Positions 1 through 34,679 of a stretch of DNA of 54,147 bases are shown here, piece by piece. The position numbers and the translations under genes were made by a program. Source of the stretch: a virus (taxonomy: Duplodnaviria > Caudoviricetes); the IMG/VR virus record IMGVR_UViG_3300018080_000221, positions 1-54,147 of that record; one strand, written 5' to 3'. Within the stretch, counting starts at the first letter, position 1, and every line of letters begins with the position of its first letter. The notes beneath the pieces were generated by a model. The model was given only the letters and a program-made list of their open reading frames with translations. It was not told where the DNA came from and searched no databases.

Positions 1-123
1 AGGAGTGCCAGATGGCTGGACTGTACTTAACGACAATCCTCCAGCTACGGAGGTAACCGAGGTAGGGTCTGGGGCGGGGCATGGTGGGGCAGGTAATGGA
101 GCGGCTAACATATACCGCTCAGA
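1..123. repeat. 123-bp terminal direct repeat (copy 1); circular-assembly overlap
   Basis: Identical to 54025-54147; lies inside an ORF that reads through the junction in frame. Confidence 0.95.
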
Positions 124-1772: not shown

Positions 1773-1817
1773 GTGGCACACACGCCTAGTTTCGGGGCTG
1801 TGCAAGGAGGTTTGATT

Positions 1818-3034: not shown

Positions 3035-3045
3035 GAGGTATAGCC

Positions 3046-4488: not shown

Positions 4489-4504
4489 TCTTTAGCTTTT
4501 AGTG

Positions 4505-4554
4505 GGCTACCAGCCGAGGCGCAATCCCCCCACCGCCAAGGCTGGTAGCCTTTT
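4505..4554 (+). terminator. Intrinsic terminator after capsid gene
   Basis: GGCTACCAGCC...GGCTGGTAGCC stem followed by TTTT. Confidence 0.7.
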
Positions 4555-4576
4555 ATCACGAGAGGGGGATGGGGGA

Positions 4577-5377: not shown

Positions 5378-5849
5378 TCCAGACGTATGTCCCGACCTAG
5401 TGACCACAATAGACGACCTATCGGAGATTGAGAGCAGGTCGGTAGAGGCAGTCTATGCCTGCCATGTACTGGAGCACGTAGACAGATACGACGTTTTGCG
5501 TACTCTGCAAGAATGGCATAGGGTACTCATACCTGGAGGGGAGCTCAGGGTAGCAGTGCCAGACTTCGAGACCATGGTGGAGTTGTATGCCGGAGGAGTA
5601 CACCTGGAACGTATCTGGGGATTGTTTTATGGGGGCCAGAGGACGGAGTGGGACAGCCATAGGGTAGTGTTCGACTACGAAACCTTGGCCACCTACCTCC
5701 AAAAGGCTGGCTTCTATGGGATGGAGAAGTATAATGCCTATAAGTGGCTGGACAGGATTAACCTGGACGCTGGCTCTTATATCGACTTTAGCACAGCCAC
5801 GATCAACGGCATCTTGATATCCCTGAATGTAGTGGGGTTTGCCAAATGA
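5313..5849 (+). CDS. Class I SAM-dependent methyltransferase
   Basis: LYLGSG, IDAD, HVLEH, EWHRVLIPGG..VPD motifs. Confidence 0.85.
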   Translation: MKRLYLGSGRKRLPGYIHIDADPDVCPDLVTTIDDLSEIESRSVEAVYACHVLEHVDRYDVLRTLQEWHRVLIPGGELRVAVPDFETMVELYAGGVHLERIWGLFYGGQRTEWDSHRVVFDYETLATYLQKAGFYGMEKYNAYKWLDRINLDAGSYIDFSTATINGILISLNVVGFAK

Positions 5850-7600: not shown

Positions 7601-8601
7601 TTAGTTTGATTATGCCTGCCAAGCTGGAGTCCGATGAGGACGTGGGCTGGATGAAGGAGCAACTAGAGACCATCCTGACTCAGGACCAAGAGAGCTGGGA
7701 GCTGCTTGTGGTTAACGACCACTCAGGCCAGTCCTTCAAGCCTCTGGCAGACTTCTTCAGGGACGACCGGATCAGTGGGATGAAGGCTAGTGGGTATGGC
7801 CCTGCAGCTGCTAGGAATCAAGCAGCAGAGGCCAGCACCAGTGGACTCCTGCTTCCGGTAGACCACGACGACAAGGTAGCACCAGGGGCACTCAAGCTCT
7901 TGCTTGGTGGGTGGGGCGAGTGCGGTAATGGAGTAATCTATGGGGATACGGTGATCTTTGGAGAGAACGGTAGCCGTGTATTCCAGTCTCCTCCATTCGA
8001 CCCAGACCTGATGCTGAAGCAGCTATTGATGCCAGTCTTTGGCCTGCATAGTAAGGCTGCATGGCAAGATGCTGGTGGATGGAAGTCCCAGCTTGAGCAT
8101 GGCCTAGAGGACTGGGAATACTACCTATCCTTGATGGAAAAGGGCCATTGCGGACACCACGTCAAGGGAGTCACCTATTACTACCGCAAGCATACCGGTA
8201 GCCGACTTTCAAACCTATTAGCCACGGATACAGGCTACCAGGTAGCCTATTCCAGAATGAGAGATATGCATAGCGACCTGTTCGCTGGGAGGATAAAAGT
8301 GCCTTGTGGACCTTGCTCAGGACAAATCGTAGGAAATAACAAGCCCATTCAGCCGCAGTCGTCTGTCATGACGGCAGTTCAGATGTCTCAAGTACCAGCT
8401 GACCAGTTGGTGCGGGTAGAGTACACTGGTAGACGTGCTGGCTCCTTTACCATTACTGGCCGTCCTAGTATGGCTCAATACGACGTGTCTGGGCCTGGGA
8501 GCGAGCTGGTTGGAGTAGACGGGCGACCAGGCGTGCTTGGCCAGGACATCAGGTTCATTACCTCCTTGGACGGTGGTAATACCTTTAGGGTAGTCCAATG
8601 A
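7591..8601 (+). CDS. GT2 glycosyltransferase with extra C-terminal domain
   Basis: VSLIMP, VNDHS, ARN, VDHDD, LEDWE, YYYRKH motifs. Confidence 0.85.
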   Translation: MPLVSLIMPAKLESDEDVGWMKEQLETILTQDQESWELLVVNDHSGQSFKPLADFFRDDRISGMKASGYGPAAARNQAAEASTSGLLLPVDHDDKVAPGALKLLLGGWGECGNGVIYGDTVIFGENGSRVFQSPPFDPDLMLKQLLMPVFGLHSKAAWQDAGGWKSQLEHGLEDWEYYLSLMEKGHCGHHVKGVTYYYRKHTGSRLSNLLATDTGYQVAYSRMRDMHSDLFAGRIKVPCGPCSGQIVGNNKPIQPQSSVMTAVQMSQVPADQLVRVEYTGRRAGSFTITGRPSMAQYDVSGPGSELVGVDGRPGVLGQDIRFITSLDGGNTFRVVQ

Positions 8602-20892: not shown

Positions 20893-21109
20893 AAGGCTTC
20901 TCCTTACCACAGGATGAGCACTTCCAATAACGGCCTCGGATGGCCCCTGCCGAGTCGTAGGTGAACTTACAGACCCAGACGTGGCTCTCGATGGTACGTT
21001 GCTTTAGTACCTTCTGGCATCTTAGGCACTGGCTGATCCTCTTGAACTGGCAGCCCCCCAATGGTATAGAACGATGCATCACTTGATTATGCTCGCACTT
21101 CTTACTCAT
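20882..21109 (-). CDS. Small double zinc-ribbon protein
   Basis: CEH..GGC..CLRC..HVW..CSSCG. Confidence 0.6.
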   Translation of the reverse strand: MSKKCEHNQVMHRSIPLGGCQFKRISQCLRCQKVLKQRTIESHVWVCKFTYDSAGAIRGRYWKCSSCGKEKPYEE

Positions 21110-21503
21110 CAGGAGCCTCCTCCAGGGCTGAATCGGTGAACTTGGAGATTTTTATCGACTTCGTGTTGTATTTCTGCTTCAAGCCCTGTACATACAGGTA
21201 GCGGCGTTCTCCCGATGCCTGGCAGTACCGATGCATCTCTGTAGCCAGGGCCTTGGCAACTGGCAGTAGGCTCAGGGCAATCTGGGCTATATCTGCTGCC
21301 TTGCCTGCCCACCACCGCCAGATACTGTCTTGAGGCTTGATAGTACCTCCAAAGTTTTGCTGGATATTGACTAGGGCCTGGCGGTCAGCGGTACATAGCT
21401 CCACCTTGGTAGTTCCCTGGCGCTTATTAGGCCCCATATCTATTATACGCCAGTACCCCTTCTCGACGATGAAGTCTATAGCTTCATCCTTAGTGCTTGT
21501 CAT
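21102..21503 (-). CDS. Degenerate LAGLIDADG-fold protein
   Basis: DFIVEKG...VELCTAD...IQQNFGGTI...WRW...LLP pattern. Confidence 0.5.
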   Translation of the reverse strand: MTSTKDEAIDFIVEKGYWRIIDMGPNKRQGTTKVELCTADRQALVNIQQNFGGTIKPQDSIWRWWAGKAADIAQIALSLLPVAKALATEMHRYCQASGERRYLYVQGLKQKYNTKSIKISKFTDSALEEAPDE

Positions 21504-24039
21504 CGTATGCCTCCAGGTGGCCCCAATCTGGGCCTAGGTCTATGTCCACCTTCCATGGGACTTGGGGAAACCACTTCTCCCCAGTAGCCTTCATGATAGA
21601 CTGGACTTTTCTACCTACCTCCTCGACCTTGTCGTTCCTGACCTCCAAGAGGACGCTGTCGTGGATAGTAGCTACCATCTTGGCGTAGTCGATACCCTCA
21701 GCCTTTAGCCAGTCGCATACCGAGATAAAGGTCATCAAGGTAACGTCTGAGGCAGCCCCTTGGACCGGCATGTTCCCTGCGGCCTTACGGGCATCGTCTA
21801 GGTTATCGTTGGTGATGAGAGGGTAGCGACGCCTACGCTTGGTTACAGTCTCCACGTAGCCTCGCGTCCTCAGGGTCTTGAGCTGGCCCTGCTTCCACTC
21901 CTCCAAGGTAGTCATGAGCTTCTTATACCTGCGGACGAACTGCCTGGCTAGGGTCATCGACATCCCAGTCTCCATAGCGAAGGAATGCTCAGTACCTCCA
22001 TACAGGTAGGCAAAGTTGAACTTCTTGCAGTTGTTGCGCTCGTCCTTGGTATACTCCTCTCCGTACATAGCTACTGCTACTTCAGAGTGGAGGTCGCGAC
22101 CCTCCTGGTATACTTGCAAGAGGAATGGCTCTCCAGATAGGGCAGCGGCTACTCTCATCTCTGCCTGGGAGATGTCTACCTCCATAATCGACCATCCTTC
22201 AGGAGCTTTGCAGTAGGCCGCCCTGATATACTGCCCCCAGGTATCCCCCAGAGCCGAGCCTGTACCTGGCCTGGGGATAGTCTGGATGGCAGGGTCACGG
22301 AAGGATACCCGGCCAGTCTCTGTACCATACAAGAGGCAGTCGGGATGTATCTTCCCCTCAGGGTCGATCATACTAGCATTGGTCCTCTTACGGTAGAATA
22401 GGTTGTCGATGTAGGAGCTTTTCAGCTTCAGTAAGGACTTCAGCTGGTCGAACCCCTCCAACCACTTATAGGCTACAGAATCCTGGCGACCCCAGCCGGC
22501 CAGCTTCTGCCTGATCAGTAGCCTCGCCTCTGCGCAGGTCGTCTTTGGCTTTGCGTTCCTAACCCTGACCGTAGGCAGTGCGAAGTGGTCATACATGATC
22601 TTCTGAACCTGCATCCAGGAGTTGGGGTTGAATTCGTACCCGCACATCTCTTCAAGTTCCTCTTGCAGCTTGACTGCCCCATCGCCCATCTCCTCAGACA
22701 AGCGGTGAAGCTCGTCTACGTCGCAGTACAGGCCATAGAGTTCCATATCCACCATATGAGGCAAAGCCGCCATCAGTGGGTAGCGGTACGGCATCTCGAA
22801 CATATCATCTGCCTCTAGCTGCTCCTTGAGGATGAACCAGAGTCTCAAGTTATAGCAAACGTCCAGGACGTTATACTCCATCAGCTGGTCGGCTGGGACA
22901 CTGGAGTACATATCGTTCTTGCTCTTGAGGTACTTCTTGACCAGTTCTCCCTCATAGTCTCCGATGTCGAGATAGTTAGTCAGCAACGGCTTGAGCCCGT
23001 GGTACATGGTCTCGTCGATCAGGTAGTGAGCTACCAAGCTGTCGTCATCTGCTCTAGCCTGGACCCCCAACTGGTGCCTGAGATACCTGATGTCGAACTT
23101 GGCGTTATGCCCGACAAAGGTGATACCATTATCTGGAGCAAAGAGGCGGTTGAGTGCCTCGGCTGTCTCTGGTAGGTAGACCATCTCTGCAGGAATGACC
23201 CAGGCTCGGTTGACGTCGTAGGCAAAGGCCATACATAGTATCCTATGCTCCCAATAGACCAGCTGATCAGTCTCAAGGTCGAAGCAGATGGTGAGTCCCT
23301 CCCTCCCCTGCTTGAGCATCGCATTTACCCAGTAGTTGAGGTCGTCTATATCCTCGACTACGTGGTAATGAGGATACGGCAGGTCTAGTGGTCCTCCATT
23401 GGCCAGCTTCTGAACGTCGTGGACTAGCTCAGAGAAGTGGCCTCCTGTACGTAGGATATAGGCTGGGTGCCAGGTACATATGACCCCGTCGTGCCACTGC
23501 CCTCTGAGCGACCCCTGCAGGATACCTGTAAGGGCCTTACCTGCTACTGCTCCAGCTGCTAGGATTGGGATGCCCTCGGCCTGGTAAGGTGCCAGCTCTG
23601 CAAGGAGTCTTGGACGGCAGCACTGGGCAGCCCTCCAAGGTATCTTGTTGGCTGGTGGATGGCAGAGGGCTGTATTGGTAAAGTATAGGTCGTCACGGGT
23701 GAGGTCAGTTGCTCCTTCTAGGATAGCCGTCAGCAACTTACCGGAGTCCCCAATGAAGGGGACTCCTTGCTTGGCTTCATTCCTGCCTGGGGCCTCCCCG
23801 CAAACAACGCCTCTGCACACGCCCTTATTCGGGGGTGTGCCAGAGCCTTGAACCATCGGACGGTGGAGCAGTGGGCAATGTATGCACTGGGGCTTAGGCA
23901 ATTCAGTATCCTTCACGCCCAGGGCTATATGCTTGCGCTCTGCTGCTATCAAGTCCTCATATGATACCTTCAGTAGGTCTTTATGATGAATCTTTGGCAG
24001 GTCCACTGGCTCTACTAACTGCTTGGCCCTCTTAGCCAT
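21490..24039 (-). CDS. polA: Family A DNA polymerase with N-terminal family-4 uracil-DNA-glycosylase-like domain and 3'-5' exonuclease
   Basis: CIHCPL, GEAPG, PFIG.SG, TWHPAY; FDLET, HNAKFD, YNVLD; DISQAEMR, KKFNFAYLYG, IHDS. Confidence 0.93.
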   Translation of the reverse strand: MAKRAKQLVEPVDLPKIHHKDLLKVSYEDLIAAERKHIALGVKDTELPKPQCIHCPLLHRPMVQGSGTPPNKGVCRGVVCGEAPGRNEAKQGVPFIGDSGKLLTAILEGATDLTRDDLYFTNTALCHPPANKIPWRAAQCCRPRLLAELAPYQAEGIPILAAGAVAGKALTGILQGSLRGQWHDGVICTWHPAYILRTGGHFSELVHDVQKLANGGPLDLPYPHYHVVEDIDDLNYWVNAMLKQGREGLTICFDLETDQLVYWEHRILCMAFAYDVNRAWVIPAEMVYLPETAEALNRLFAPDNGITFVGHNAKFDIRYLRHQLGVQARADDDSLVAHYLIDETMYHGLKPLLTNYLDIGDYEGELVKKYLKSKNDMYSSVPADQLMEYNVLDVCYNLRLWFILKEQLEADDMFEMPYRYPLMAALPHMVDMELYGLYCDVDELHRLSEEMGDGAVKLQEELEEMCGYEFNPNSWMQVQKIMYDHFALPTVRVRNAKPKTTCAEARLLIRQKLAGWGRQDSVAYKWLEGFDQLKSLLKLKSSYIDNLFYRKRTNASMIDPEGKIHPDCLLYGTETGRVSFRDPAIQTIPRPGTGSALGDTWGQYIRAAYCKAPEGWSIMEVDISQAEMRVAAALSGEPFLLQVYQEGRDLHSEVAVAMYGEEYTKDERNNCKKFNFAYLYGGTEHSFAMETGMSMTLARQFVRRYKKLMTTLEEWKQGQLKTLRTRGYVETVTKRRRRYPLITNDNLDDARKAAGNMPVQGAASDVTLMTFISVCDWLKAEGIDYAKMVATIHDSVLLEVRNDKVEEVGRKVQSIMKATGEKWFPQVPWKVDIDLGPDWGHLEAYDDKH

Positions 24040-24835
24040 GACCCATCCTCTCTCCCTCATTAGAGGCCATCTTGGTAGCTTTATGGTAAATGGCGAGATT
24101 GATCTCTGCCAGGGTCAAGGTCTCTTTGAGTAGGTAGCCCTCTGGACGCCAGGCATCCTCAGTCATATTGCACTTGCCTATCATCTCGGTATAGACCTGA
24201 CCCTGCAAGGCGGCCGCGTAGGGGCAGGTGGTATCCCAACTGCGGATATGTGGGAAGTAGCTGATCGCTTGGATAGGTTGGGACATAACCGACCATTGCC
24301 CTAGTAAGTGCAGCCTGGATGGATGCCCCATATAAGGAGTCAATCTGATGCAGTGCGTCCTGACCCATGAGAGGGCAGCGATGCGGCCTCCAGGGAACTT
24401 GTCTAGCACTTTAGGTATCCCAATGGTGAGCTGAGGGATACGCTCCCATAGGTCAGTACCCATCATCTGCCTCAGGCACTCCACCCACTCCTGTACAGAG
24501 CCTCCTTGCGGTACGACCATAACGCTATTGGCATAGGCAGACAGTTCCAGGGCATGGGCATGGAACAGCTTGAGGGTCTTGTCCTTATCCATAAAGGCGT
24601 CGGGGCAGACTACCTCAAATGGCTCGATAGCCTTGGCAACCTTGTAGAGGGTCTTGACCCTTGGCTCTCCAGTCTCTATGACCCCATTATCTAGGATGAC
24701 TCCGCTATGATCCCTGAACTGCTCCCATTCGTCCTCTGGCAGGTCGTTGAATAGGTGGGCTTGGAGCATAACGTATACCCCAGTGGCTAGATGCTTCACC
24801 ATCTTCAGTGGTAGTACGGGCGCAAATTCAGTCAC
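24032..24835 (-). CDS. Divergent TGT/DpdA-fold (7-deazaguanine transglycosylase-like) protein
   Basis: VILDNG, CPD, VVPQG, LHLLG, RSWDT match the order of TGT active-site motifs; AAGGAGG before GTG 24835. Confidence 0.7.
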   Translation of the reverse strand: MTEFAPVLPLKMVKHLATGVYVMLQAHLFNDLPEDEWEQFRDHSGVILDNGVIETGEPRVKTLYKVAKAIEPFEVVCPDAFMDKDKTLKLFHAHALELSAYANSVMVVPQGGSVQEWVECLRQMMGTDLWERIPQLTIGIPKVLDKFPGGRIAALSWVRTHCIRLTPYMGHPSRLHLLGQWSVMSQPIQAISYFPHIRSWDTTCPYAAALQGQVYTEMIGKCNMTEDAWRPEGYLLKETLTLAEINLAIYHKATKMASNEGERMGHG

Positions 24836-25262
24836 GGCTCCCCCTCCTTTTCCTGGGCGACACGCCCCTGCCTGCTTGGGCCTTGACGATGGGGTCGGCC
24901 TCCACCTGGATGCCCTTCTTCTCTGCTTCCCTGGCCAGTAGCATGCGGATAAGGCCCCCGAACATGGCTGAGTAGATATGGACATCCCCAGTTTCCTCCT
25001 CGACCTCCGACCATTGTACAGAGAAGAAGTCGTTGGGATCATAGCCATCCAGCAATTGACTGAGCCTGTCGATCTTCTTCTTGAGCTCCTGCACAAAGCC
25101 ATGGGGGAAGTTGATGCGTTCCCAGACTGGAGAGGAACGGTCATACATCTTGCCCTTCTCAGAAAAGACGCCATTGGCATCCTCTTGGAACCCCTTGACT
25201 TCCTCATACCACTCGGCAAGTAGCAAGTCAAGTACCTTTTGCTCCTCAATAAACAGTTTCAT
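24828..25262 (-). CDS. All-alpha NTP pyrophosphatase (DUF1599/Nmad1-like)
   Basis: KGKMY...G...KKIDRL...EETGDVHIY pattern. Confidence 0.6.
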   Translation of the reverse strand: MKLFIEEQKVLDLLLAEWYEEVKGFQEDANGVFSEKGKMYDRSSPVWERINFPHGFVQELKKKIDRLSQLLDGYDPNDFFSVQWSEVEEETGDVHIYSAMFGGLIRMLLAREAEKKGIQVEADPIVKAQAGRGVSPRKRRGSRD

Positions 25263-25689
25263 CTTGCAGTAACCTCCTGTATATACTAACTGACGGTAGT
25301 TGAAATGGTCGGTATACCTTATGAGTCCTCCTCTCTACCCTTACCCAGCTGCCTATAGTATCCCACCTCTTGGCAGTTGGGTAGTTTACTTCTGCCAAGA
25401 TATTGTTCTGGATCATCCACTGGTCGTCTGGCAAGCCTCCGGTGGTGAGGGTATGGTCTGCGCAATCGGCTACCAGGAAGTATTCCCACCTGCTATAGCC
25501 ATACGGGCGCAGTGCCCATATCTGGCCTATGTCTCGGCAATCGGCAGAGGCTATATAGCCATCGACCATAGGAGTTATTAGTGGGAGGTGGCCTGTCCTC
25601 ATACGGTTCAAGACCACCTCCTCCATCAGCCCTTCTCGGTAGTGACTAGCCCAGCCGTAGATGATCACCAGGGCAGCTAGGGCATTCAT
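25246..25689 (-). CDS. RlpA/DPBB-like protein with hydrophobic N-terminus
   Basis: GWASHY...GYIA...C..IG...LVADC...AEV pattern; ATGA coupled to queC. Confidence 0.45.
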   Translation of the reverse strand: MNALAALVIIYGWASHYREGLMEEVVLNRMRTGHLPLITPMVDGYIASADCRDIGQIWALRPYGYSRWEYFLVADCADHTLTTGGLPDDQWMIQNNILAEVNYPTAKRWDTIGSWVRVERRTHKVYRPFQLPSVSIYRRLLQDETVY

Positions 25690-26417
25690 TCTGCTTCGAT
25701 GTAGCCAGCATCTATGCAACGACTGACCACGCGCCTCATGCCATCGAGGTCATAGGCAGGGTCGTGCATGTCGTTGGCCCAGAATGCTGCGGCACGTAGG
25801 AGGCAACTATCGCACGTACCGCAAGCCTGCTCGTCGTTCCGGTAGCAACTACGCGTATGCTCCCAAGGAACACCCAGGTCTCTTCCAAGCTCGACAATCT
25901 CTGCCTTGGTCAAGGTTATGAGTGGATGAGCAATGGTAACCTCGAACCCTCCCAGTGCCAGGACTGCAGTATCGGCAAACGCCTCCAAGAAGTCCTGCCG
26001 GCAATCTGGGTATTCCACGTCTTGCTCAACCCACCCCCCGACCAGCATATGTGCGTCGTACTTGTAGAGTAGGGGGAGAGTCCTGGCCAGCTGGAAGAGG
26101 TTGCGTCCTGGTACGAAAGATGATGGGTTACCATACTTGTCAGTAACGCCAGGTCTCAAGTCCGTAACGTCGCTGGTGATAGCCTCTAGTCCATAGCCGT
26201 CAATCTTGATGGCCTGGAATGGGATGACGTGGCCTAGCTCGGATGCCAGAGAGCCCATCACCATTAACGCTGCGTTGGCCTCGTAGTCGGCTCCAAGCTG
26301 CCCATAGTCGAAGTGGGCAATCGCTACTACCTCTGTATTCGGACGTGCTGCTGCCCAGTATAGGGCCGTGGAGGAGTCCATTCCTCCACTAAGTAGAACC
26401 ACTGCTCTGTCCTTCAT
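25686..26417 (-). CDS. queC: 7-cyano-7-deazaguanine synthase
   Basis: LSGGMDS, FVPGRN, YPDCR, SCY..CGTCDSC..R. Confidence 0.95.
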   Translation of the reverse strand: MKDRAVVLLSGGMDSSTALYWAAARPNTEVVAIAHFDYGQLGADYEANAALMVMGSLASELGHVIPFQAIKIDGYGLEAITSDVTDLRPGVTDKYGNPSSFVPGRNLFQLARTLPLLYKYDAHMLVGGWVEQDVEYPDCRQDFLEAFADTAVLALGGFEVTIAHPLITLTKAEIVELGRDLGVPWEHTRSCYRNDEQACGTCDSCLLRAAAFWANDMHDPAYDLDGMRRVVSRCIDAGYIEAE

Positions 26418-27024
26418 CTTCAGTTACCTCCATTCCTAGAGTATTATAGAGCCTACCTTCAAACTGCATGCGCCAACCTGGCTCTAGTAGGTCTACGGCG
26501 TGCAGTACCGACGGCGTGTTAGCTTTGATCTTGTTCTTGGTTATATACTTCTGGGCCTGCCCTCCTAGACGGCTGGCTATATAGATAACCTTCTGATCTG
26601 GCTTGAGTCCTTGCCCATATAAGAGGACCAGCCCATGCATCAAGATAAACTGTATCTTGTCCTTGGCTACCTTCCTATCCAGGTACAGGTTATAGAGCCT
26701 GCCGCTATGGATAAAGTTATGGCAAGTATAGCACAGGGCAACGGTCTCTCTATAGCGGAGCACCAACTTATCCCACAAGTAGTCGTAGCACTCGTGGGCC
26801 TCTAACCATTGGTGATACTTGGCGTTAGAGGAGGAAACCCCGCAGGCAAAGCAATGGTAGTTGTTAACCTCGTAAACCTGCTTACGATGCCTATCCCACC
26901 ATTCCTTACCCATCAACGTCCTTGGGTTAACCCCTGACAGGTACTTGGGTATGTTAGGATGCTGCAGAATATCTGGCCTGGTAAACTTGAGGCCAGTAGC
27001 CGATAGGTCCAGGCTAATCTTCAC
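26389..27024 (-). CDS. HNH endonuclease
   Basis: W...R..VY...CFACG...LEAHE...LCYTCHNFIH. Confidence 0.75.
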   Translation of the reverse strand: MKISLDLSATGLKFTRPDILQHPNIPKYLSGVNPRTLMGKEWWDRHRKQVYEVNNYHCFACGVSSSNAKYHQWLEAHECYDYLWDKLVLRYRETVALCYTCHNFIHSGRLYNLYLDRKVAKDKIQFILMHGLVLLYGQGLKPDQKVIYIASRLGGQAQKYITKNKIKANTPSVLHAVDLLEPGWRMQFEGRLYNTLGMEVTEDEGQSSGST

Positions 27025-27340
27025 GATTGACTGACCTGTCTACATTGAACCCTTCTGGATACCTACCTGCTAGCTTATCCAAGTTCAAAGTGGCTACCTC
27101 TTCTAGCGTCAGCCCTATGGCATCGGCAGTGACTGCCACGTACCATAGGACGTCCCCCAGCTCCTTAGCTACTGCCGCTGCCCTGATTGGGTGGCCGTGC
27201 CAGACGTACTTCTTGACTAGGTCCAGTACCTCACCAGCTTCCCCTCCCAATCCTATAGAAGCATAGACCAGCTTCTGGACTCCACTATCGAAGCCCATAC
27301 AGGTCTTGAGTGCCCCCTTCTGGTATTCATTTAGTTCCAT
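27014..27340 (-). CDS. mazG: MazG-like NTP pyrophosphohydrolase
   Basis: YQ..A, GLGGEAGEV, ELGDVLWY, N..KL..RYP. Confidence 0.92.
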   Translation of the reverse strand: MELNEYQKGALKTCMGFDSGVQKLVYASIGLGGEAGEVLDLVKKYVWHGHPIRAAAVAKELGDVLWYVAVTADAIGLTLEEVATLNLDKLAGRYPEGFNVDRSVNRED

Positions 27341-27341
27341 A

Positions 27342-29801
27342 CTACCCCCTTATCGTTAGCGTGAACTCTTTGGTGGTTATCTCTGATGGTATATCTAGCT
27401 CAGCATCGTAGGCAGCTTGTAAATCTATCCCATGGGCCCTGACCATCTTACCCTCTAGCTTCATTACCTGGGCTGGTAGGACAAACCTGGTCATCTCCTC
27501 TAGCATACTGACCATAGCTGCCTTACTGAGCGATGGTTGGCCCATCCTATGAGAGTGCGAGGCATAAGCATGGTAGGCTGGAGTGACGTGAAACCATAGG
27601 ACTCCATCCTTGAGCTTATAGGAAAAGTTAGCACTGCCCCTAGCAGCTATGTTAACTACGAACTCTACAAAGTCATCGGCTGCTACTGGCGCCCTACCTC
27701 TAGCCACGACGTATACATTCTCAAGGGCCTGCCTCATTACCTGTATAGGTGGTCTTGGCGTTCCTAAGAAATCGGCAAGGATATCAATCCCATACCAGGC
27801 TACTGCCAGGTTACGCCTGACCCTGTCTGGCATAGGATAGACGAATGCCTTATCTACCTCCTTCTGGGCGTCGATCAAACCCTCCCGCACACCCCCGATT
27901 TGGAGCGTGTGCAGTGCATATGGTAGAGATAGGCTATGGAGGTCTACCGCCGACAGCCGCTGGAACGCACGCCAGGCAGGTGAGTCCTTCATAACGGTAT
28001 CCTTCTTGAGGTGGACGGCTACAATACGCTCCTTTACTGCTGGGTCTTGGAGCTGATCCTCACCGTCTATGGAGAAGGGCGCAGTCAGTGGGTATTGGGT
28101 TATAGTCTGGTCTGGCCGTCCTCTGGCATCGACTCCACTATCGTAGCTGAGGAGGATGTACCTCAAGAACTCCTTAGTCATATTGGCCCTGAACTCGCTG
28201 AACGAGATGGGAGGGGCATTAGACGATCCCAGGAGGGACAGCAGTACGAACCTAGTCGTATTAGCGTCGTACCCCTTGGGGTCGGTATAGCCCGCCATCC
28301 TCAGGAAGATTCTCTGGATGAGCGTCGTCTTGCCGCTGCCCTTGGTACCAGAGACAGAGAGTATGGGAAAGCGGTAGCCTGCCTCCTCGATTGCCGGCTT
28401 CAGTGGAGTAGCAGCATACCATCCTATCATAGGCCAGATAGCATCTGGGTCGTGGAGATTGGGCAGGTTCTCCGCTATGACCTCCTTGACCTCTTGGGAT
28501 AGGTGACTATCTGTGATAGAGATGGATGGTAGGTTCTTGGTAGCTGGTACATACACTATCGGGGCACGACTGTCTCCCTTCCAGATAGACCCGTCAGAAC
28601 CTATGACCGCTTCCCTGGTTACATAGTAGGTACGGTCATCGTCTACTATCGAGTGCCGTCCCATGGTCCTGGTCGAGCGGGCCAGAGGTACTCCCTTGGC
28701 CTGTAGTTGCTGGATAAGGTAGGCTGACATCTGCCTGACATGAAGGTCTCGTCCAAGCCAGTTCCACGCAGCCTTATTCAGCCTGGGGGTGAGCTTACCA
28801 AGGGAGCTGAGCTCAGTCTTGGTAAAGACTTCCCCTTTCCAGACGTGCTTAGTACCGTTAGCCCTAACGTCTGCAACGATGGCATCTTCATCCCCTTCAA
28901 GGAGGAGGAGGGGGTCGAGCACGAACGTAGACACCTGGGCTGCTCCTCTACCGGAGGCCATGTAGTAGCAGTTATCCTTCTCAACGACTGGCCCTGGTCC
29001 TGCTTGGTCCTCTGAACCTCCATCGCCAGCCTTGGTCCTTATAGTAATGACCTCTGCTGAGGATTCCCTGGCAGAGGCTATAGTCTTATCTAGGTAGTGC
29101 CCCCGTTCTGATTGGTGCTTATCCCCGCACTTATGGCAGTCAAAGATGCGGGTAATGGACTCATCACTCATTCCTGCAGAGACCAAGGCAGTCACTATCG
29201 CCCAGTCTCTCTCCGACCTGGACGTATACCCCCTACGGTCACCGTTCCTCACTTTCCTGGCCATCTTGTCTGTTATGGCGAGGGAAGCATCCACGTCACC
29301 AAGGGAGTATACGTACTCAGGTCGTATAATATCAACAGACACCACTATAGGGGCATCTGATTCTTTCATATTCATTGAGCCTGGCAATCTCATCAGTCGG
29401 TCTATATTATGACAACTATCGCCCTTGACCGACTGGGCCAGGCTGGCATTACGTGTCTCTATCTCCTTACGTTCCGGTATGAAGGTATCTATCCTCCAGT
29501 ATAAGTGGTATCCGTGGCCAGATCGGACTATGGCCGACGGAGGTAATACAGCAGGTATCAAGTCTGGACGGTCCAAGTCTACCCAGAGAACCTGACTACC
29601 TAGGCAATTGGCCTTACCTATGGCATCTGCCTTAGCCCGTACTGCTGGACCAAAGTAGACGTCTAGCTGTTCAGGTATCTTTAGAGCATCTATGGCCCTG
29701 ATGGGTATCCACCTACGATGCTCCCTATCCGTGCCTCCAATACTCAGTTCTATGAGGTTGTCGTTGTTCAGTCCACTGAAGCATAAATTTAGGAGGTCCA
29801 T
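27342..29801 (-). CDS. Primase-helicase (RepB'-like AEP primase + P-loop domain)
   Basis: WVDLD, SGHGYHLYW, RLMRLPGS.N.K, SRSERD, GTKGSGKT. Confidence 0.85.
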   Translation of the reverse strand: MDLLNLCFSGLNNDNLIELSIGGTDREHRRWIPIRAIDALKIPEQLDVYFGPAVRAKADAIGKANCLGSQVLWVDLDRPDLIPAVLPPSAIVRSGHGYHLYWRIDTFIPERKEIETRNASLAQSVKGDSCHNIDRLMRLPGSMNMKESDAPIVVSVDIIRPEYVYSLGDVDASLAITDKMARKVRNGDRRGYTSRSERDWAIVTALVSAGMSDESITRIFDCHKCGDKHQSERGHYLDKTIASARESSAEVITIRTKAGDGGSEDQAGPGPVVEKDNCYYMASGRGAAQVSTFVLDPLLLLEGDEDAIVADVRANGTKHVWKGEVFTKTELSSLGKLTPRLNKAAWNWLGRDLHVRQMSAYLIQQLQAKGVPLARSTRTMGRHSIVDDDRTYYVTREAVIGSDGSIWKGDSRAPIVYVPATKNLPSISITDSHLSQEVKEVIAENLPNLHDPDAIWPMIGWYAATPLKPAIEEAGYRFPILSVSGTKGSGKTTLIQRIFLRMAGYTDPKGYDANTTRFVLLSLLGSSNAPPISFSEFRANMTKEFLRYILLSYDSGVDARGRPDQTITQYPLTAPFSIDGEDQLQDPAVKERIVAVHLKKDTVMKDSPAWRAFQRLSAVDLHSLSLPYALHTLQIGGVREGLIDAQKEVDKAFVYPMPDRVRRNLAVAWYGIDILADFLGTPRPPIQVMRQALENVYVVARGRAPVAADDFVEFVVNIAARGSANFSYKLKDGVLWFHVTPAYHAYASHSHRMGQPSLSKAAMVSMLEEMTRFVLPAQVMKLEGKMVRAHGIDLQAAYDAELDIPSEITTKEFTLTIRG

Positions 29802-32745: not shown

Positions 32746-32919
32746 CTAGAACTTCAGATTGGCGCTGCGTTCAGCATCCTTCCGTTGGATGGTCTGGACT
32801 TTGACCTTCAGCATAGCTTTGGATACCGACTCTACAGTCCTGGTCCTGCCTCCTGGTAAGGTGATCTTGGCGCGGTGGACGCCGCGTTTCTCATCATACC
32901 AGTATCTTACACTGCCCAT
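32746..32919 (-). CDS. 57-aa basic protein (MGSVRYWYDEKRGVHRAKITL...)
   Basis: AGGAGG RBS; TGATG coupling to folE stop; below cutoff. Confidence 0.55.
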   Translation of the reverse strand: MGSVRYWYDEKRGVHRAKITLPGGRTRTVESVSKAMLKVKVQTIQRKDAERSANLKF

Positions 32920-33518
32920 CATTTACCTCCTTCCTTAGCCAGGAACATAAATTCCTGGTATAGATAGGGATTACCAAGGAAGTAACCCCGCTTAACTGAC
33001 GTACCTAGGCTGCCCGTATTCTCGATACCACGGCACTGCATACAGGTATGCCGGCCAATGGCATAGGCTGCCACTGAGGACTGGCCCGTTATCTCTGCAA
33101 TCTCGTCTGCCACCTGATTGAGGAACCTCTCCTGTATCTGCAGACGGTGGGCATACTTATAGCAAACTCTGGCTACCTTGGATGCCCCCAGGTATTTATC
33201 CTTTACCTGATAGCCTACCACGACATCCATCGAGAACGGCAGTAGGTGATGCTCGCACATGGACCAGACGTCATTGACTCTGAGGACTACTAACTGACCC
33301 TGCCCCTTGGCCTCGAAGGTAGTACCTATCTTGCCAGGATCGTACTCAATAAAGGACTTCCAGAATCTAGCTACTCTGTCTGGGGTATCAACCAATCCCT
33401 CACGAGTGGGGTTCTCTCCTATGGCCCTGAGCAGGCGAGTCACCGAGATTCGGATCAAGTCCTCCTGCACACCCCCTGACTCGGCGTGTGCGGCTGCTGT
33501 CGTTTCTTCCTTCATCAT
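32919..33518 (-). CDS. folE: GTP cyclohydrolase I
   Basis: REGL.DTP.RVA, SMCEHHLLPF, SK..R, RLQIQE, HTCM..RG. Confidence 0.95.
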   Translation of the reverse strand: MMKEETTAAAHAESGGVQEDLIRISVTRLLRAIGENPTREGLVDTPDRVARFWKSFIEYDPGKIGTTFEAKGQGQLVVLRVNDVWSMCEHHLLPFSMDVVVGYQVKDKYLGASKVARVCYKYAHRLQIQERFLNQVADEIAEITGQSSVAAYAIGRHTCMQCRGIENTGSLGTSVKRGYFLGNPYLYQEFMFLAKEGGK

Positions 33519-34153
33519 TTCACCCCTATATACTTATGGACTTGGACCGACAGCCGGCAACCGAGTTGAAGGCATGCCTTGAAGGCCAGCTTGGTGGAGT
33601 GCTCCTCCTGGGAGATAGGCTGTAGGCAAACGCGCTGAGGGTCTATGTCGTGTAGGTTCATGAACGCCTTCAGCCTGGCTATAGAGGGCATCCCACCCAC
33701 CAGCCACTTGATCTCGTCTGCCCCCTCAACGACGTTCTTCAGGTAGCTACCCTCAGGGAGCATATGCTTGGGGCTTACCACGATATGGTCGATTAGGTGT
33801 GCCCCTGGGATAGGTAGGCTACCATTGGTCTCCAGATGGATGCATGGAATGGGATGGCTCAACTGGATGAGCGCCTCTAGCAGGGCCTCCAGGGGTTGTA
33901 GGCACGGCTCGCCTCCGGTCAGTACCAGGAGGTCGTTGGCATGGGCAGTCTGCTGGATAGCCTTAACCAGTCGATTCAGGGTATAGGTCGTACCCCCTTC
34001 AAGGCCGATGGACCCCTTGGTATCGCAGAAGCCGCAGTCGAGATTGCACCCCTGGAACCTGACGAAGGTAGCAGGCCAGCCAGAGAAGCGTCCTTCTCCC
34101 TGGATAGACCGGAAGATAGAGTGTACTAGGTAGGTTGGCTTAGACTTCGACAC
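33515..34153 (-). CDS. queE: 7-carboxy-7-deazaguanine synthase (radical SAM)
   Basis: SIQGEG, CNLDCGFCDT, TGGEP, ETNG, SPK, LSVQVHK. Confidence 0.95.
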   Translation of the reverse strand: MSKSKPTYLVHSIFRSIQGEGRFSGWPATFVRFQGCNLDCGFCDTKGSIGLEGGTTYTLNRLVKAIQQTAHANDLLVLTGGEPCLQPLEALLEALIQLSHPIPCIHLETNGSLPIPGAHLIDHIVVSPKHMLPEGSYLKNVVEGADEIKWLVGGMPSIARLKAFMNLHDIDPQRVCLQPISQEEHSTKLAFKACLQLGCRLSVQVHKYIGVK

Positions 34154-34679
34154 TGCATCCTCCTAAGCCCTCCCATAGAGTGACGTTTACTATCTCTACT
34201 CTGGGCAGCTCCTCTATCTTCTGCTGAAGGTACAGAGCAATATTCTCTGCAGTTGGCAGTGGAATGAAGTCATTGAGCCAGGAGTGGTCCAAGTCGTCGA
34301 TGATCTCCTTGATATCGCCAAAGTCCACTACCACGCCGTCGGCCTCGTTGACATGCCCCAACATCTCTACCTTGACTCGGTAAGAATGCCCATGAGGATT
34401 ACTACACTTACCTGGATGGCACGGCAAGTAGTGTCCGGCCTCGAAGGTACGCTCCACCGTCAGCCATGCATGGCGCTTCGGCCCTGAGGGGTTGGTACGG
34501 CAACGGACTCCCCTAACGGCCTCACCCCTGAGGTGAGGCTCTCCTGGGATGTCCACATCTGCCATCGCTTCTCGGCACTCCGCCTCTGCGGCCAGGAGTT
34601 CTTGTAAGTCTGTTATCTGCTTGAGAGCCTCAATCTTGCTCACTTGGTTACCCTTGCCTACATCTGCGTCGTGCATCAT
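34140..34679 (-). CDS. queD: 6-carboxytetrahydropterin synthase with N-terminal extension
   Basis: FEAGH, C...HGHSY, DFG, LDH..LN, PTAENIA. Confidence 0.93.
   Translation of the reverse strand: MMHDADVGKGNQVSKIEALKQITDLQELLAAEAECREAMADVDIPGEPHLRGEAVRGVRCRTNPSGPKRHAWLTVERTFEAGHYLPCHPGKCSNPHGHSYRVKVEMLGHVNEADGVVVDFGDIKEIIDDLDHSWLNDFIPLPTAENIALYLQQKIEELPRVEIVNVTLWEGLGGCSVEV

What the first reader, a model, noticed from the sequence alone, without database searches (positions are those of the whole stretch)
21490..27340. 7-deazaguanine system with divergent TGT-fold enzyme, two NTP pyrophosphatases and the polymerase in one operon
Established: FolE, QueD, QueE and QueC make preQ0, and DpdA-type TGT homologues put 7-deazaguanines into phage DNA. 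Seen: the gene order is mazG-HNH-queC-DPBB-Nmad1/DUF1599-TGT-like-polA with overlapping ends. The 267-aa TGT-like protein has LDNG rather than DSG and no obvious zinc-binding CxC..C motif. I found no QueF, ArcS, Gat-QueC or DpdC, so dPreQ0 is the default product. Inference: pyrophosphatases and a polymerase flanking the TGT-like gene resemble the logic of dZ phages (deplete the normal dNTP, incorporate the analogue), so this may be a pre-replicative route or a new DpdA subfamily.
Basis: partly seen in the sequence, partly recalled or inferred. Interest (0 to 1): 0.85.

Follow-up and report, generated by a model that had tools for sequence, protein, structure and literature searches.

The report
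DpdA3-type deazaguanine module beside polymerase
This phage carries the genes to make the guanine analogue preQ0 and a stripped-down base-swapping enzyme of the already described DpdA3 family, placed directly in front of its DNA polymerase gene as in most relatives, so it is a new member of a known system whose mode of action is still open.

Summary
The gene array is real. On the minus strand, with overlapping ends, it runs primase, MazG, HNH, QueC, a 157-aa ORF, a 144-aa ORF, a 267-aa TGT-fold protein and UDG-exo-PolA. FolE, QueE and QueD lie 5.6 kb upstream.

The 267-aa protein is not a new DpdA subfamily. A profile of its relatives matches Cellulophaga phage phiST DpdA3 over its full length (99.8%, E 1.5e-29). 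It also finds the Campylobacter phage CP220 DpdA3 (E 3e-26). The model is a TGT-type barrel. The nucleophile Asp is invariant, and the zinc site and large DNA-binding insertion of bacterial DpdA are absent.

Only one pyrophosphatase (MazG) is firm. The "Nmad1" and "DPBB" calls remain leads.

In 35 DpdA3-family loci (26 clusters at 50% identity), a DNA polymerase gene (PolA, PolB or PolIII-alpha) is directly adjacent in 14 clusters. It lies within 3.3 kb in 7 more. MazG-superfamily and small P-loop kinase-like genes recur beside DpdA3.

Most likely product: dPreQ0 DNA, perhaps highly substituted. DNA-level exchange, the published view, is my favoured mechanism.

The parts
34140..34679 (-). QueD (6-carboxytetrahydropterin synthase), 179 aa with an N-terminal extension
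   Evidence: NCBIfam TIGR03367, E 7.8e-25, 87.1 bits, just under the 89.25 cut-off
33515..34153 (-). QueE (radical-SAM 7-carboxy-7-deazaguanine synthase), 212 aa
   Evidence: NCBIfam TIGR04322, E 1e-39, below the equivalog cut-off
32919..33518 (-). FolE (GTP cyclohydrolase I), 199 aa
   Evidence: NCBIfam NF006826, E 1.1e-42, below the cut-off
27342..29801 (-). Primase/helicase-like replication protein, 819 aa; first gene of the tight array
   Evidence: PHROG primase families, E 5e-15 to 3e-12. Homologues stand upstream of QueC in L003, L008, L009, L010 and L023
27014..27340 (-). MazG-type all-alpha NTP pyrophosphatase, 108 aa
   Evidence: Pfam PF03819, E 5.3e-11, 43.1 bits, cut-off 22. phrog_229, E 9e-40. 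Substrate not determined
26389..27024 (-). HNH endonuclease-like protein, 211 aa
   Evidence: phrog_5200, E 4.6e-23. No Pfam hit at E<=0.01. 56% identical homologue at the same place in L003
25686..26417 (-). QueC (7-cyano-7-deazaguanine synthase), 243 aa, single domain
   Evidence: Pfam PF06508, E 4.7e-47. TIGR00364, E 6.3e-39, below the cut-off
25246..25719 (-). 157-aa ORF; probable start at Met11 (25689), which gives a 4-nt overlap with queC. Possible RlpA-like DPBB protein with a hydrophobic N-terminus. Not conserved in relatives
   Evidence: No Pfam or PHROG hit. Atlas lead: DPBB_1 cluster, score 0.93, TM 0.58. Absent from L003. L008 and L010 carry a Vut_1 transporter at this position
24828..25262 (-). 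144-aa helical protein; conserved partner gene directly upstream of dpdA3 in this clade. Possible remote Nmad1/DUF1599 or MazG-superfamily member
   Evidence: Homologues directly upstream of DpdA3 in L003, L008, L009 and L010. 23 homologues at E<=1e-3. Pfam nothing for this protein; 6 of 24 relatives hit DUF1599 weakly, best E 0.045. Atlas score 0.86. Foldseek best match DCTPP1, E 0.39, not significant
24032..24835 (-). DpdA3-family 7-deazaguanine transglycosylase, 267 aa, GTG start. Minimal TGT-type TIM barrel without a zinc site
   Evidence: AlphaFold pLDDT 90.5. Foldseek PDB: 198 hits at E<=1e-3, all 49 listed rows TGTs. VIA: Z 18.0 arcTGT, 16.9 DpdA 7ui4. BFVD best hit phiST M4SLA5, E 6.3e-13. 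hhalign to phiST DpdA3: 99.8%, E 1.5e-29
21490..24060 (-). Family-4 UDG-like domain + 3'-5' exonuclease + family A DNA polymerase, 856 aa. Overlaps the end of dpdA3
   Evidence: Pfam UDG 6.7e-21, exo 3.5e-20, DNA_pol_A 6.8e-74. UDG Cys, GE and HP positions conserved in 13 aligned PolAs
21102..21503 (-). 133-aa ORF of unknown function overlapping the end of polA
   Evidence: 61% identical homologue at the same place in L003. No family

Best explanation
This is the DNA-modification and replication module of a complete (terminally repeated) uncultured phage genome.

Pathway. FolE, QueD, QueE and QueC convert GTP to the free base preQ0. This follows from established knowledge of these families.

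The enzyme. The 267-aa protein is a member of the DpdA3 family of minimal TGT-fold transglycosylases. It keeps the TGT/DpdA catalytic set:
- D201 aligns with the DpdA nucleophile Asp256.
- Q110 aligns with the base-binding His181.
- D49 (in LDNG) and D79 are invariant, and I infer that they are the general acid/base and the second base-binding Asp.

Proposed action. I propose that it exchanges guanine for preQ0 at the deoxyribose C1' of phage DNA, giving dPreQ0 (or dADG if the nitrile is hydrated). Substitution is probably high, because all DpdA3 phages analysed so far replace G completely. The tight, family-wide linkage of dpdA3 to the DNA polymerase gene suggests that exchange is coupled in time, perhaps physically, to replication.

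Accessory genes. MazG and the 144-aa helical protein are accessory; their roles are inferred, not shown.

Odds:
- DpdA3 family membership: about 0.9.
- A 7-deazaguanine in virion DNA: about 0.8.
- DNA (not free nucleotide) as the substrate: about 0.6.
For: Identity and family:
- Model pLDDT 90.5.
- All 49 listed Foldseek PDB rows are tRNA-guanine or archaeosine TGTs; 198 hits at E<=1e-3.
- VIA-align over 48,161 chains: the top four are TGT-superfamily. These are 1iq8 (Z 18.0, rmsd 3.4, 236 aligned), 7ui4 DpdA (Z 16.9, 3.5, 233), 3unt (16.6) and Cap10 9ntn (15.4).
- The profile of 81 relatives hits DpdA 7ui4 by sequence at E 6e-5. It aligns VPQG with the His181 position and the invariant D201 with Asp256 (chain numbering = native + 20) (residue roles from PMC10164549 passages).
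- hhalign of the family profile: phiST DpdA3 99.8%, E 1.5e-29, 242 columns. Youna2 homologue 99.9%. DpdA4 HVTV1_69 only 80%, 122 columns.
- The profile finds CP220 CPT_0056 at E 3e-26 and Brevundimonas phage StAshley gp00090 at 8.4e-37.
- D49, E54, D79, H176, G179 and D201 are invariant in 81 sequences.

Pathway:
- Searches identify QueC, FolE, QueE and QueD.
- No QueF.

Literature (PMC10516641, abstract and passages):
- DpdA3 phages CP220, phiST and immuto_2-6A are completely modified.
- The authors propose post-replicative insertion.

Linkage:
- 35 loci, 26 clusters at >=50% identity.
- Polymerase directly adjacent in 14 clusters, within 0.4-3.3 kb in 7, none seen in 5.
Against: - No DpdA3 enzyme has been shown to act on DNA in vitro or in E. 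coli. The 2023 authors report that their attempts failed.
- The protein lacks the zinc site and the large Ins8 insertion. The DpdA structure paper describes both as conserved in the DpdA family and places Ins8 at the DNA.
- No DpdB-like partner was identified here, and it was not searched for specifically.
- The D49 and D79 role assignments are inferred from position and invariance, not from an alignment to a solved structure.
- The same 2023 paper argued that DpdA3 is unlikely to insert preQ0, because phiST and the Campylobacter phages lack the full pathway. The substrate here (preQ0, ADG or CDG) is therefore uncertain.
- The NCBIfam hits for FolE, QueD, QueE and QueC are all below the curated equivalog cut-offs.
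- The phage is uncultured, so there are no chemical data.
Confidence: 0.6

Rival explanations
1. Pre-replicative, nucleotide-level route. DpdA3 exchanges the base on a free deoxyguanosine nucleotide, for example dGMP produced from dGTP by MazG. Kinases raise the product to the triphosphate. dGTP is kept low by the pyrophosphatase(s). The linked polymerase then builds fully substituted DNA, as in the dZ, hmC or hmU phages.
For: Literature and structure:
- All three analysed DpdA3 phages show complete replacement, and free ADG nucleoside was seen in CP220-infected cells (PMC10516641 passages).
- Attempts to show DpdA3 activity on DNA in E. coli failed.
- DpdA3 is a bare barrel without the DpdA DNA-binding insertion and zinc site.

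Neighbours of DpdA3 genes are nucleotide enzymes and polymerases:
- MazG in 5 of 33 loci by iterated HMM.
- PRA-PH in L025.
- Nmad1-like in 5 of 33 loci, plus weak DUF1599 hits in L020 and L026.
- AAA_18 or AAA_28 kinase-like genes directly beside DpdA3 in phiST and MA9V-3, L004 and L025.
- In CP220, an HD+AAA_33 gene and an AAA_28 gene flank DpdA3 on both sides.
- A 446-aa protein, P0131, carries a weak N-terminal P-loop match (AAA_33, E 0.0035) in front of a DpdA3 domain.
- A TGT-fold enzyme with a non-nucleic-acid acceptor exists: Cap10 ranks 4th by fold.
Against: - No TGT-family enzyme is known to act on free nucleotides.
- This window has no kinase candidate. Its only Walker A motifs, seen by eye in the translations, are in the Sak4-like protein and the primase/helicase.
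- MazG-superfamily or kinase-like neighbours are not universal. Nucleotide-metabolism genes (RNR, PurA, thymidylate synthase) cluster near replication genes in phages in any case.
- A small ATPase could equally be a DpdB-like helper for DNA exchange, since DpdB's ATPase is required for DpdA.
- The published interpretation is post-replicative.
- MazG specificity is unknown.
Confidence: 0.25
2. The protein represents a separate, new DpdA subfamily (a 'DpdA5'), or belongs with DpdA4/DUF6610 rather than DpdA3.
For: - Only 22% identity to phiST DpdA3 by tblastn (E 3e-4).
- Its only Pfam hit is DUF6610, the DpdA4 model, at E 1.4e-5.
- 14 of 81 relatives also hit DUF6610.
- No tree was built.
Against: - The DUF6610 score (25.3 bits) is below the 27-bit cut-off.
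- The family profile aligns with phiST DpdA3 over its full length (99.8%) but with DpdA4 over only 122 columns at 80%.
- DpdA4 is 386 aa; this protein is 267 aa and phiST DpdA3 is 259 aa.
- The best structural neighbour among viral models is phiST DpdA3, TM 0.71/0.73.
- The profile detects CP220 DpdA3 at 3e-26 but HVTV1_69 only at 3e-7.
Confidence: 0.08
3. The enzyme acts on something other than phage DNA or dNTP precursors: host or phage tRNA (a classical TGT role), or a protein acceptor as with Cap10.
For: - The fold and catalytic residues are shared with tRNA TGTs.
- Cap10 is among the top fold matches (Z 15.4).
Against: - There is no zinc subdomain, PUA domain or other RNA-binding extension.
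- The genome has no tRNA genes.
- Family members occur in phages whose DNA, not tRNA, is shown to be modified.
- The gene is linked to the DNA polymerase in 21 of 26 clusters.
- No CD-NTase context.
Confidence: 0.04

Closest known systems
DpdA3 of Cellulophaga phage phiST (CGPG_00065 = PhiST_gp042) and Campylobacter phage CP220 (CPT_0056); Cui et al., NAR 2023, PMC10516641
   Same: - About 260-aa minimal TGT-fold barrel with no zinc motif.
- Full-length profile match and best viral structural neighbour.
- Sits with FolE/QueD/QueE genes, a MazG (phiST) and a DNA polymerase gene.
   Different: - Only about 22% identity.
- This phage also has QueC and no DpdL, so preQ0, rather than CDG, DG or ADG, is the expected base.
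- The upstream partner is a 144-aa helical protein, not an AAA_18 P-loop protein.
- The polymerase is UDG-PolA, not PolIII-alpha.
Uncharacterised homologues in Bacillus phages BSP7/BSTP, Weizmannia phage Youna2 and Brevundimonas phage StAshley
   Same: - Same module: primase ... QueC, QueD, QueE, FolE ... DpdA3-like directly upstream of (overlapping) a UDG-containing PolA.
- QueC is present. No QueF appears in the 11-15-kb stretches I fetched; the rest of each genome was not searched.
   Different: - 28% identity or less.
- A 183-187-aa protein with a weak P-loop match stands upstream instead of the 144-aa helical protein.
- The preQ0 genes are contiguous there, but split into two blocks here.
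DpdA4 / DUF6610 (Halovirus HVTV-1 gp69)
   Same: - A zinc-less, distant TGT relative in a virus with preQ synthesis genes.
- The only Pfam model that touches the window protein.
   Different: - 386 aa.
- Partial profile match only: 80%, 122 columns.
- Archaeal virus with QueF and a dPreQ1 product.
Bacterial DpdA (Salmonella Montevideo, PDB 7UI4) with DpdB
   Same: - TIM-barrel transglycosylase.
- Nucleophile Asp and base-binding position aligned.
- Z 16.9 over 233 residues.
   Different: - bDpdA is about 415 aa. It has a CxCxxC...H zinc site and a 128-residue Ins8, needs the DpdB ATPase, and modifies under 0.1% of G at a sequence motif.
- None of these features is present or shown here.
dZ (2-aminoadenine) phage cluster MazZ-PurZ-DatZ-DpoZ
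   Same: Layout analogy only: an NTP pyrophosphatase, a base-pathway enzyme and a family A polymerase in one block.
   Different: - No PurZ or DatZ here.
- The PurA-like genes found next to DpdA3 in L012 and L015 resemble cellular PurA (34-38%) more than the Arthrobacter-phage PurA-like proteins (25%).
- The chemistry is base exchange, not de novo nucleotide synthesis.

Membership tests
DpdA3 (phage 7-deazaguanine transglycosylase subfamily) | Full-length homology to phiST CGPG_00065, the founding member | tested here: met
   hhalign of the 81-sequence profile against PhiST_gp042: 99.8%, E 1.5e-29, 242 of 259 residues aligned. BFVD best hit M4SLA5, E 6.3e-13
DpdA3 (phage 7-deazaguanine transglycosylase subfamily) | Same family as the Campylobacter phage member | tested here: met
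   The profile built from the window protein's relatives finds CP220 CPT_0056 at E 3e-26 as the only match in the 177-kb record
DpdA3 (phage 7-deazaguanine transglycosylase subfamily) | TGT-type (beta/alpha)8 fold | tested here: met
   pLDDT 90.5. Foldseek: all 49 listed rows are TGTs. VIA Z 18.0, 16.9 and 16.6 to arcTGT, DpdA and TGT; the next non-TGT barrel scores 14.9
DpdA3 (phage 7-deazaguanine transglycosylase subfamily) | Catalytic aspartates of the TGT/DpdA mechanism | tested here: inconclusive
   D201 aligns with the nucleophile Asp256 and Q110 with His181 of DpdA. D49 and D79 are invariant in 81 sequences, but their equivalence to Asp95 and Asp130 is inferred, not aligned
DpdA3 (phage 7-deazaguanine transglycosylase subfamily) | Encoded with 7-deazaguanine base synthesis genes | tested here: met
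   QueC lies 0.85 kb upstream; FolE, QueE and QueD are at 32919-34679
DpdA3 (phage 7-deazaguanine transglycosylase subfamily) | 7-deazaguanine replaces G in virion DNA (complete in the tested members) | not testable with these tools
   Uncultured phage. Needs LC-MS/MS of DNA
Canonical TGT / ArcS (Pfam PF01702) | Match to the TGT model | tested here: not met
   No PF01702 hit for the protein, for 0 of 81 relatives at E<=1e-3, or anywhere in the genome at E<=1
Canonical TGT / bacterial DpdA | Structural zinc site CxCxxC...H and the large insertion after beta-8 | tested here: not met
   No such motif in the sequence. The only Cys conserved at 90% or more is C120. After beta-8 the model has one short helix, a loop and one long C-terminal helix
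DpdA4 / DUF6610 (PF20314) | Score above the Pfam gathering threshold; full-length similarity to HVTV-1 gp69 | tested here: not met
   25.3 bits against a 27-bit cut-off. hhalign 80%, 122 columns only. Length 267 aa against 386 aa
MazG (PF03819), for 27014-27340 | Match to the MazG NTP pyrophosphohydrolase domain | tested here: met
   E 5.3e-11, 43.1 bits, cut-off 22. phrog_229, E 9e-40. dGTP specificity is not testable here
Nmad1 / DUF1599 (PF07659), for 24828-25262 | Match to the DUF1599 model | tested here: inconclusive
   No hit for the protein, even at E<=10. 6 of 24 relatives hit weakly, best E 0.045. Atlas score 0.86, a lead only. hhalign to a weak DUF1599 hit (L026 ORF): E 0.004, probability 8%. 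Foldseek best match DCTPP1, E 0.39
RlpA-like DPBB (PF03330), for 25246-25719 | Match to DPBB_1 | tested here: inconclusive
   No Pfam hit at E<=10. Atlas feature score 0.93 to a cluster in which 41% of members carry DPBB_1, and TM 0.58 to an RlpA cluster
dZ-like pre-replicative replacement system | Enzyme that removes the canonical dNTP, synthesis of the analogue at nucleotide level, and a dedicated polymerase | not testable with these tools
   MazG and PolA are present, but substrate specificities are unknown. No kinase candidate in the window. Context evidence from relatives only

The most novel reading that the evidence does not exclude
DpdA3 enzymes, including this one, are not DNA transglycosylases. 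They are the first TGT-fold enzymes that exchange the base on free deoxyguanosine nucleotides.

On this reading, a MazG- or HD-type hydrolase supplies the monophosphate and depletes dGTP. Small P-loop kinases, or host kinases, re-phosphorylate the product. The gene-linked polymerase then incorporates it. 7-deazaguanine DNA in DpdA3 phages would therefore be made pre-replicatively, which would explain the 100% replacement.
Probability: 0.25. Interest if true: 0.85.

Novelty: new member of a known kind. Interest (0 to 1): 0.5.

Why it matters
The window itself adds one more, divergent, member to the DpdA3 family. It combines DpdA3 with a full preQ0 pathway and no QueF. In the passages I read, no phage with that combination has had its DNA analysed. 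This predicts phage genomes heavily or fully substituted with dPreQ0 or dADG, and cultured phages of Bacillus, Weizmannia and Brevundimonas carry the same module.

The wider value is in the family survey.
- DpdA3 genes are tied to the DNA polymerase gene across three polymerase families.
- They are often flanked by MazG-superfamily and kinase-like genes.

How DpdA3 phages reach complete replacement is unexplained, and no DpdA3 has been reconstituted. The survey narrows the question to two mechanisms, replication-coupled DNA exchange and nucleotide-level exchange. Both can be tested with named, cultivable phages.

Tried and rejected
- DNA similarity of 21490-27340 to 50,697 phage records found no match.
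- The scan of genome contigs for relatives found none.
- The A1 (15-sequence) profile against PDB gave 7ui4 only at E 0.46. The deeper A3 profile was needed.
- The 144-aa protein:
  - The PDB sequence profile gave only a chance bromodomain hit.
  - hhalign to the window MazG gave 1.5% probability.
  - VIA-align wide gave only generic helical hairpins, best Z 7.0.
  - Foldseek gave no hit at E<=1e-3.
- Complex prediction of DpdA3 with the 144-aa protein returned 'no answer' (score 0.00, mark 0.32; controls not run). This is neither support nor evidence against binding.
- The search for longer, fused forms of the DpdA3-like protein (469-2000 aa) found none. The tool itself calls this weak evidence.
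- PurA-like genes beside DpdA3 in L012 and L015 were considered as PurZ, which would imply dZ phages. I set this aside because they are closer to cellular PurA.
- UDG-PolA as a marker specific to DpdA3 was rejected. Of 5 further UDG-PolA phages sampled out of 27 records, only 1 (StAshley) has DpdA3.
- Literature:
  - 'DUF1599' (3 papers) and 'Nmad1' (6 papers) listings held nothing relevant.
  - Crippen et al. 2019 is not held. What I say of it comes from Cui et al. 2023.
  - 'deazaguanine' + 'pre-replicative' + 'phage' matched 4 papers, of which 3 were listed (titles and abstract starts only). None is about a nucleotide-level deazaguanine route.
  - In Cui et al. 2023 'polymerase' occurs twice, once in a reference title and once naming the phiST gene.
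  - Supplementary Data S1 and S13 of that paper list the DpdA3 homologues. They may already include BSP7-type or other relatives.
- No phylogenetic tree was built.
- DpdC and DpdB were not searched for.

Full report
**What is there.** The window is a whole virus record. It has an exact 123-nt direct repeat at both ends (1-123 = 54025-54147) and is classed as having direct terminal repeats. From 29801 down to 21102 the minus strand carries a tight array whose reading frames abut or overlap. In order:
- a primase/helicase-like protein (27342-29801);
- MazG (27014-27340);
- an HNH endonuclease-like protein (26389-27024);
- QueC (25686-26417);
- a 157-aa ORF (25246-25719);
- a 144-aa ORF (24828-25262);
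- a 267-aa protein with a GTG start (24032-24835);
- an 856-aa polymerase (21490-24060);
- a 133-aa ORF (21102-21503).

Pfam confirms MazG, QueC and the polymerase. It also shows that the polymerase carries an N-terminal family-4 UDG domain and a 3'-5' exonuclease domain. The HNH call rests on PHROGs only. FolE, QueE and QueD lie at 32919-34679, next to an SNF2 helicase. Their NCBIfam matches are strong but below the curated equivalog cut-offs.

The genome has no QueF, no canonical TGT/ArcS-type PF01702 match and no tRNA gene. The other minus-strand ORFs that I scanned gave only a PD-(D/E)XK nuclease and an HTH protein. The four-enzyme route to preQ0 is therefore complete and nothing known lies beyond it. 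I did not search for DpdC.

**The 267-aa protein.** Its only Pfam hit is DUF6610 at 25.3 bits, under the 27-bit cut-off. A paper search showed that DUF6610 is the model that led to DpdA4 in Halovirus HVTV-1. The same paper defined DpdA3 from phiST CGPG_00065 (PMC10516641, abstract and passages).

By tblastn against 50,697 phage records, 6 records match. They are Weizmannia phage Youna2 (28%, E 3e-6) and five Cellulophaga phiST-group records (22%, E 3e-4). The phiST hit is PhiST_gp042, the gene between an AAA_18 gene and the PolIII-alpha genes.

The family is large. An exhaustive phmmer over 1.84 billion representatives gave 1,082 proteins at E<=1e-3, 155 at 1e-10 and 16 at 1e-30. Nearly all are 240-300 aa long.

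In an alignment of 81 of them, D49, E54, D79, H176, G179 and D201 are invariant. N50, P78, P109, G111, W117, C120, G139 and R151 are nearly so. Scanned singly against Pfam, 14 of 81 touch DUF6610 and 0 of 81 touch TGT.

The AlphaFold model is confident (pLDDT 90.5, pTM 0.90) and is an eight-stranded barrel that ends in one long helix.
- Foldseek against the PDB gave 198 hits at E<=1e-3, and all 49 listed rows are tRNA-guanine or archaeosine transglycosylases.
- Against viral models the best hit is the phiST protein itself (M4SLA5, E 6.3e-13, TM 0.71/0.73).
- VIA-align against 48,161 chains put arcTGT (Z 18.0), the DNA preQ0 insertase DpdA 7ui4 (Z 16.9, rmsd 3.5, 233 residues), bacterial TGT (16.6) and the CBASS protein Cap10 (15.4) on top. 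Unrelated barrels follow from Z 14.9 down.

By sequence, the 81-member profile hits 7ui4 at E 6e-5. In that alignment the invariant D201 falls on chain residue 276 and Q110 of VPQG on chain residue 201. The chain carries a 20-residue tag, which I checked against Phe265. These positions are therefore Asp256, the nucleophile, and His181, a base-binding residue, of the DpdA paper (PMC10164549 passages). The roles of D49 (in LDNG) and D79 (in CPD) as the other two aspartates are my inference.

The CxCxxC...H zinc site and the 128-residue Ins8 are absent. That paper describes both as conserved in the DpdA family.

- Against phiST DpdA3: 99.8% probability, E 1.5e-29, 242 columns.
- Against the Youna2 homologue: 99.9%.
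- Against DpdA4 HVTV1_69: 80%, E 1.4e-5, 122 columns.

The same profile picks out exactly one ORF in the 177-kb genome of Campylobacter phage CP220, CPT_0056, at E 3e-26. Built as an HMM, it finds gp00090 of Brevundimonas phage StAshley at 8.4e-37 and HVTV1_69 at only 3e-7. The protein is thus a divergent DpdA3, not a new subfamily. No tree was built, so I leave 0.08 for a separate clade.

**The two small ORFs.** The 144-aa protein has 23 homologues at E<=1e-3. They share a conserved 110-residue helical core. In the 47%-identical relative L003 it forms the N-terminal part of a 268-aa protein at the same position.

Pfam and PHROGs give nothing for it. The following point to Nmad1/DUF1599 or the MazG superfamily, all weakly:
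- 6 of 24 relatives hit DUF1599 (best E 0.045);
- the protein atlas gives a score of 0.86 to a cluster in which 20% of members carry DUF1599, and TM 0.45-0.53 to MazG-like models;
- Foldseek's best rows are DCTPP1/RS21-C6 pyrophosphatases at E 0.4-0.7.

I call this a lead.

The 157-aa ORF probably starts at Met11. It resembles RlpA-type DPBB proteins only by the atlas and is missing from L003. In L008 and L010 that slot holds a Vut_1 transporter. From memory, Vut_1 is the YhhQ family that imports queuosine precursors.

**Family-wide context.** Two scans of IMG/VR gave 28 loci with a relative (2 of 96 and 26 of 48 pattern matches confirmed). Adding the window, four isolates (phiST, Youna2, BSP7, MA9V-3), StAshley and CP220 makes 35 loci. 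These fall into 26 clusters at >=50% identity. I annotated the flanks with phmmer and with three-round HMMs seeded from the window and isolate proteins.

| DNA polymerase gene | Loci (of 35) | Clusters (of 26) |
|---|---|---|
| Directly adjacent (overlapping or within 100 nt) | 20 | 14 |
| 0.4-3.3 kb away | 10 | 7 |
| None seen | 5 | 5 |

The five loci without a polymerase nearby are MA9V-3, CP220, L027 (only 2 kb of downstream sequence), L030 and L031. The polymerase is PolA in most loci, PolB in L020, L028 and L029, and PolIII-alpha in phiST.

An HMM of the window-type UDG domain hits the PolA in 23 of the 25 PolA loci surveyed. Thirteen of these were training sequences; ten were not, including Youna2 and BSP7. 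UDG-PolA is not exclusive to DpdA3. Of five further UDG-PolA phages sampled from 27 records, one (StAshley) has DpdA3. One has a thymidylate-synthase/hydroxymethylase cluster in front of the polymerase, and three have neither.

Genes right beside DpdA3 also include:
- MazG in 5 of 33 loci and the 144-aa family in 5 of 33;
- PRA-PH in L025;
- weak DUF1599 hits in L020 and L026;
- AAA_18 in phiST and MA9V-3;
- AAA_28 in L004 and L025;
- in CP220, an HD+AAA_33 protein upstream and an AAA_28 protein downstream;
- PurA-like genes between DpdA3 and PolA in L011-L013 and L015, and an RNR large subunit upstream in L015;
- a formyltransferase in L032 and DUF366 in L030 and L031.

One 446-aa protein (P0131) has a weak P-loop match in front of its DpdA3 domain.

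**How it most likely works.**

*Shown:* the preQ0 genes, the DpdA3 membership, the fold, and conservation of the aligned nucleophile.

*Established elsewhere:* FolE/QueD/QueE/QueC make preQ0. DpdA uses Asp95 and Asp256 in a double-displacement base exchange. DpdA3 phages CP220, phiST and immuto_2-6A have all G replaced.

*Inferred:* this enzyme puts preQ0, or ADG, in place of guanine in phage DNA at high level. The conserved placement in front of the polymerase gene means that exchange is coordinated with replication. I give DNA-level exchange about 0.6.

- In its favour are the complete replacement, the bare barrel, the nucleotide-enzyme neighbours, the free ADG nucleoside reported in infected cells, and the failed reconstitution on DNA in E. 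coli.
- Against it are the lack of any precedent, the lack of a kinase candidate in this window, and the non-universal MazG or kinase neighbours. Phage replication modules generally collect nucleotide-metabolism genes, and a small ATPase could also serve DNA exchange as DpdB does.

**Comparison and novelty.** The locus works like, and is a member of, the DpdA3 systems of 2023. It differs in three ways: QueC without QueF or DpdL, a helical rather than P-loop partner, and a UDG-PolA. I found no statement in print about the DpdA3-polymerase linkage or a nucleotide-level route. This rests on the searches, which gave listings and passages only, and supplements were closed. The verdict is a new member of a known kind, of moderate interest. 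The family survey turns an open question into a bench test.

Noticed in passing
window 1-123 and 54025-54147: Exact 123-nt direct repeat at both ends of the window. The record is a complete, circularly permuted or terminally redundant genome of 54,024 bp. The open frames at the two ends (53174-54145 and 2-925) may be one gene.
   Followed up: partly
window 23386-24060 (N-terminal 225 aa of the polymerase): The family A polymerase has an N-terminal family-4 UDG-like domain. Its GE motif, HP motif and four Cys are conserved in 13 aligned PolAs. The same fusion is found in 23 of 25 PolA genes next to DpdA3-like genes, but also in phages without DpdA3.
   Followed up: partly
L041 (Campylobacter phage CP220) 7543-10036: The CP220 DpdA3 (CPT_0056) is flanked by an HD phosphohydrolase fused to an AAA_33 kinase-like domain (CPT_0055) and by an AAA_28 kinase-like protein (CPT_0057). 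No polymerase gene is adjacent.
   Followed up: partly
L008 6200-6871; L010 6805-7536: A Vut_1 (PF02592) membrane transporter sits between QueC and the 144-aa-family gene, in loci where no FolE, QueD or QueE was seen in the flanks. From memory this is the YhhQ preQ0/preQ1 importer family, which would suggest precursor salvage.
   Followed up: no
L012 6666-7904 (same in L011, L013); L015 9257-10447: An adenylosuccinate synthetase homologue lies between DpdA3 and PolA, in loci that have a DpdL-like gene and no QueC. It is closer to cellular PurA (34-38%) than to Arthrobacter-phage PurA-like proteins (25%).
   Followed up: partly
L014, L016, L021, L022 (e.g. L014 3182-5422 and 5587-7875): Two consecutive ORFs of about 760 aa follow DpdA3. 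Both match the window PolA and both have a UDG-like N-terminus.
   Followed up: no
P0131 (446 aa, from the representative search): The DpdA3-like region occupies residues 226-386, behind an N-terminal part with a weak P-loop (AAA_33) match at E 0.0035. This may be a fusion of the two neighbouring gene types.
   Followed up: partly
L030 8579-9184; L031 8633-9202; L032 8626-9201: DUF366 proteins (E 1e-41 to 3e-45) lie directly downstream of DpdA3 in two loci where only QueE was detected. A formyltransferase (PF00551), reminiscent of the predicted DpdN, lies downstream in a third.
   Followed up: no
L034 (MW202455) 261-8340: A UDG-PolA is preceded by genes annotated as thymidylate kinase, NTP-PPase-like protein, two thymidylate synthases and a 'pyrimidine hmase'. 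Here a pyrimidine-modification cluster occupies the position that DpdA3 modules occupy elsewhere.
   Followed up: no
window 26389-27024 and 21102-21503: The HNH gene between mazG and queC, and the 133-aa ORF after polA, are both conserved in place in L003 (56% and 61% identity). The HNH gene is therefore not a recent homing insertion.
   Followed up: partly
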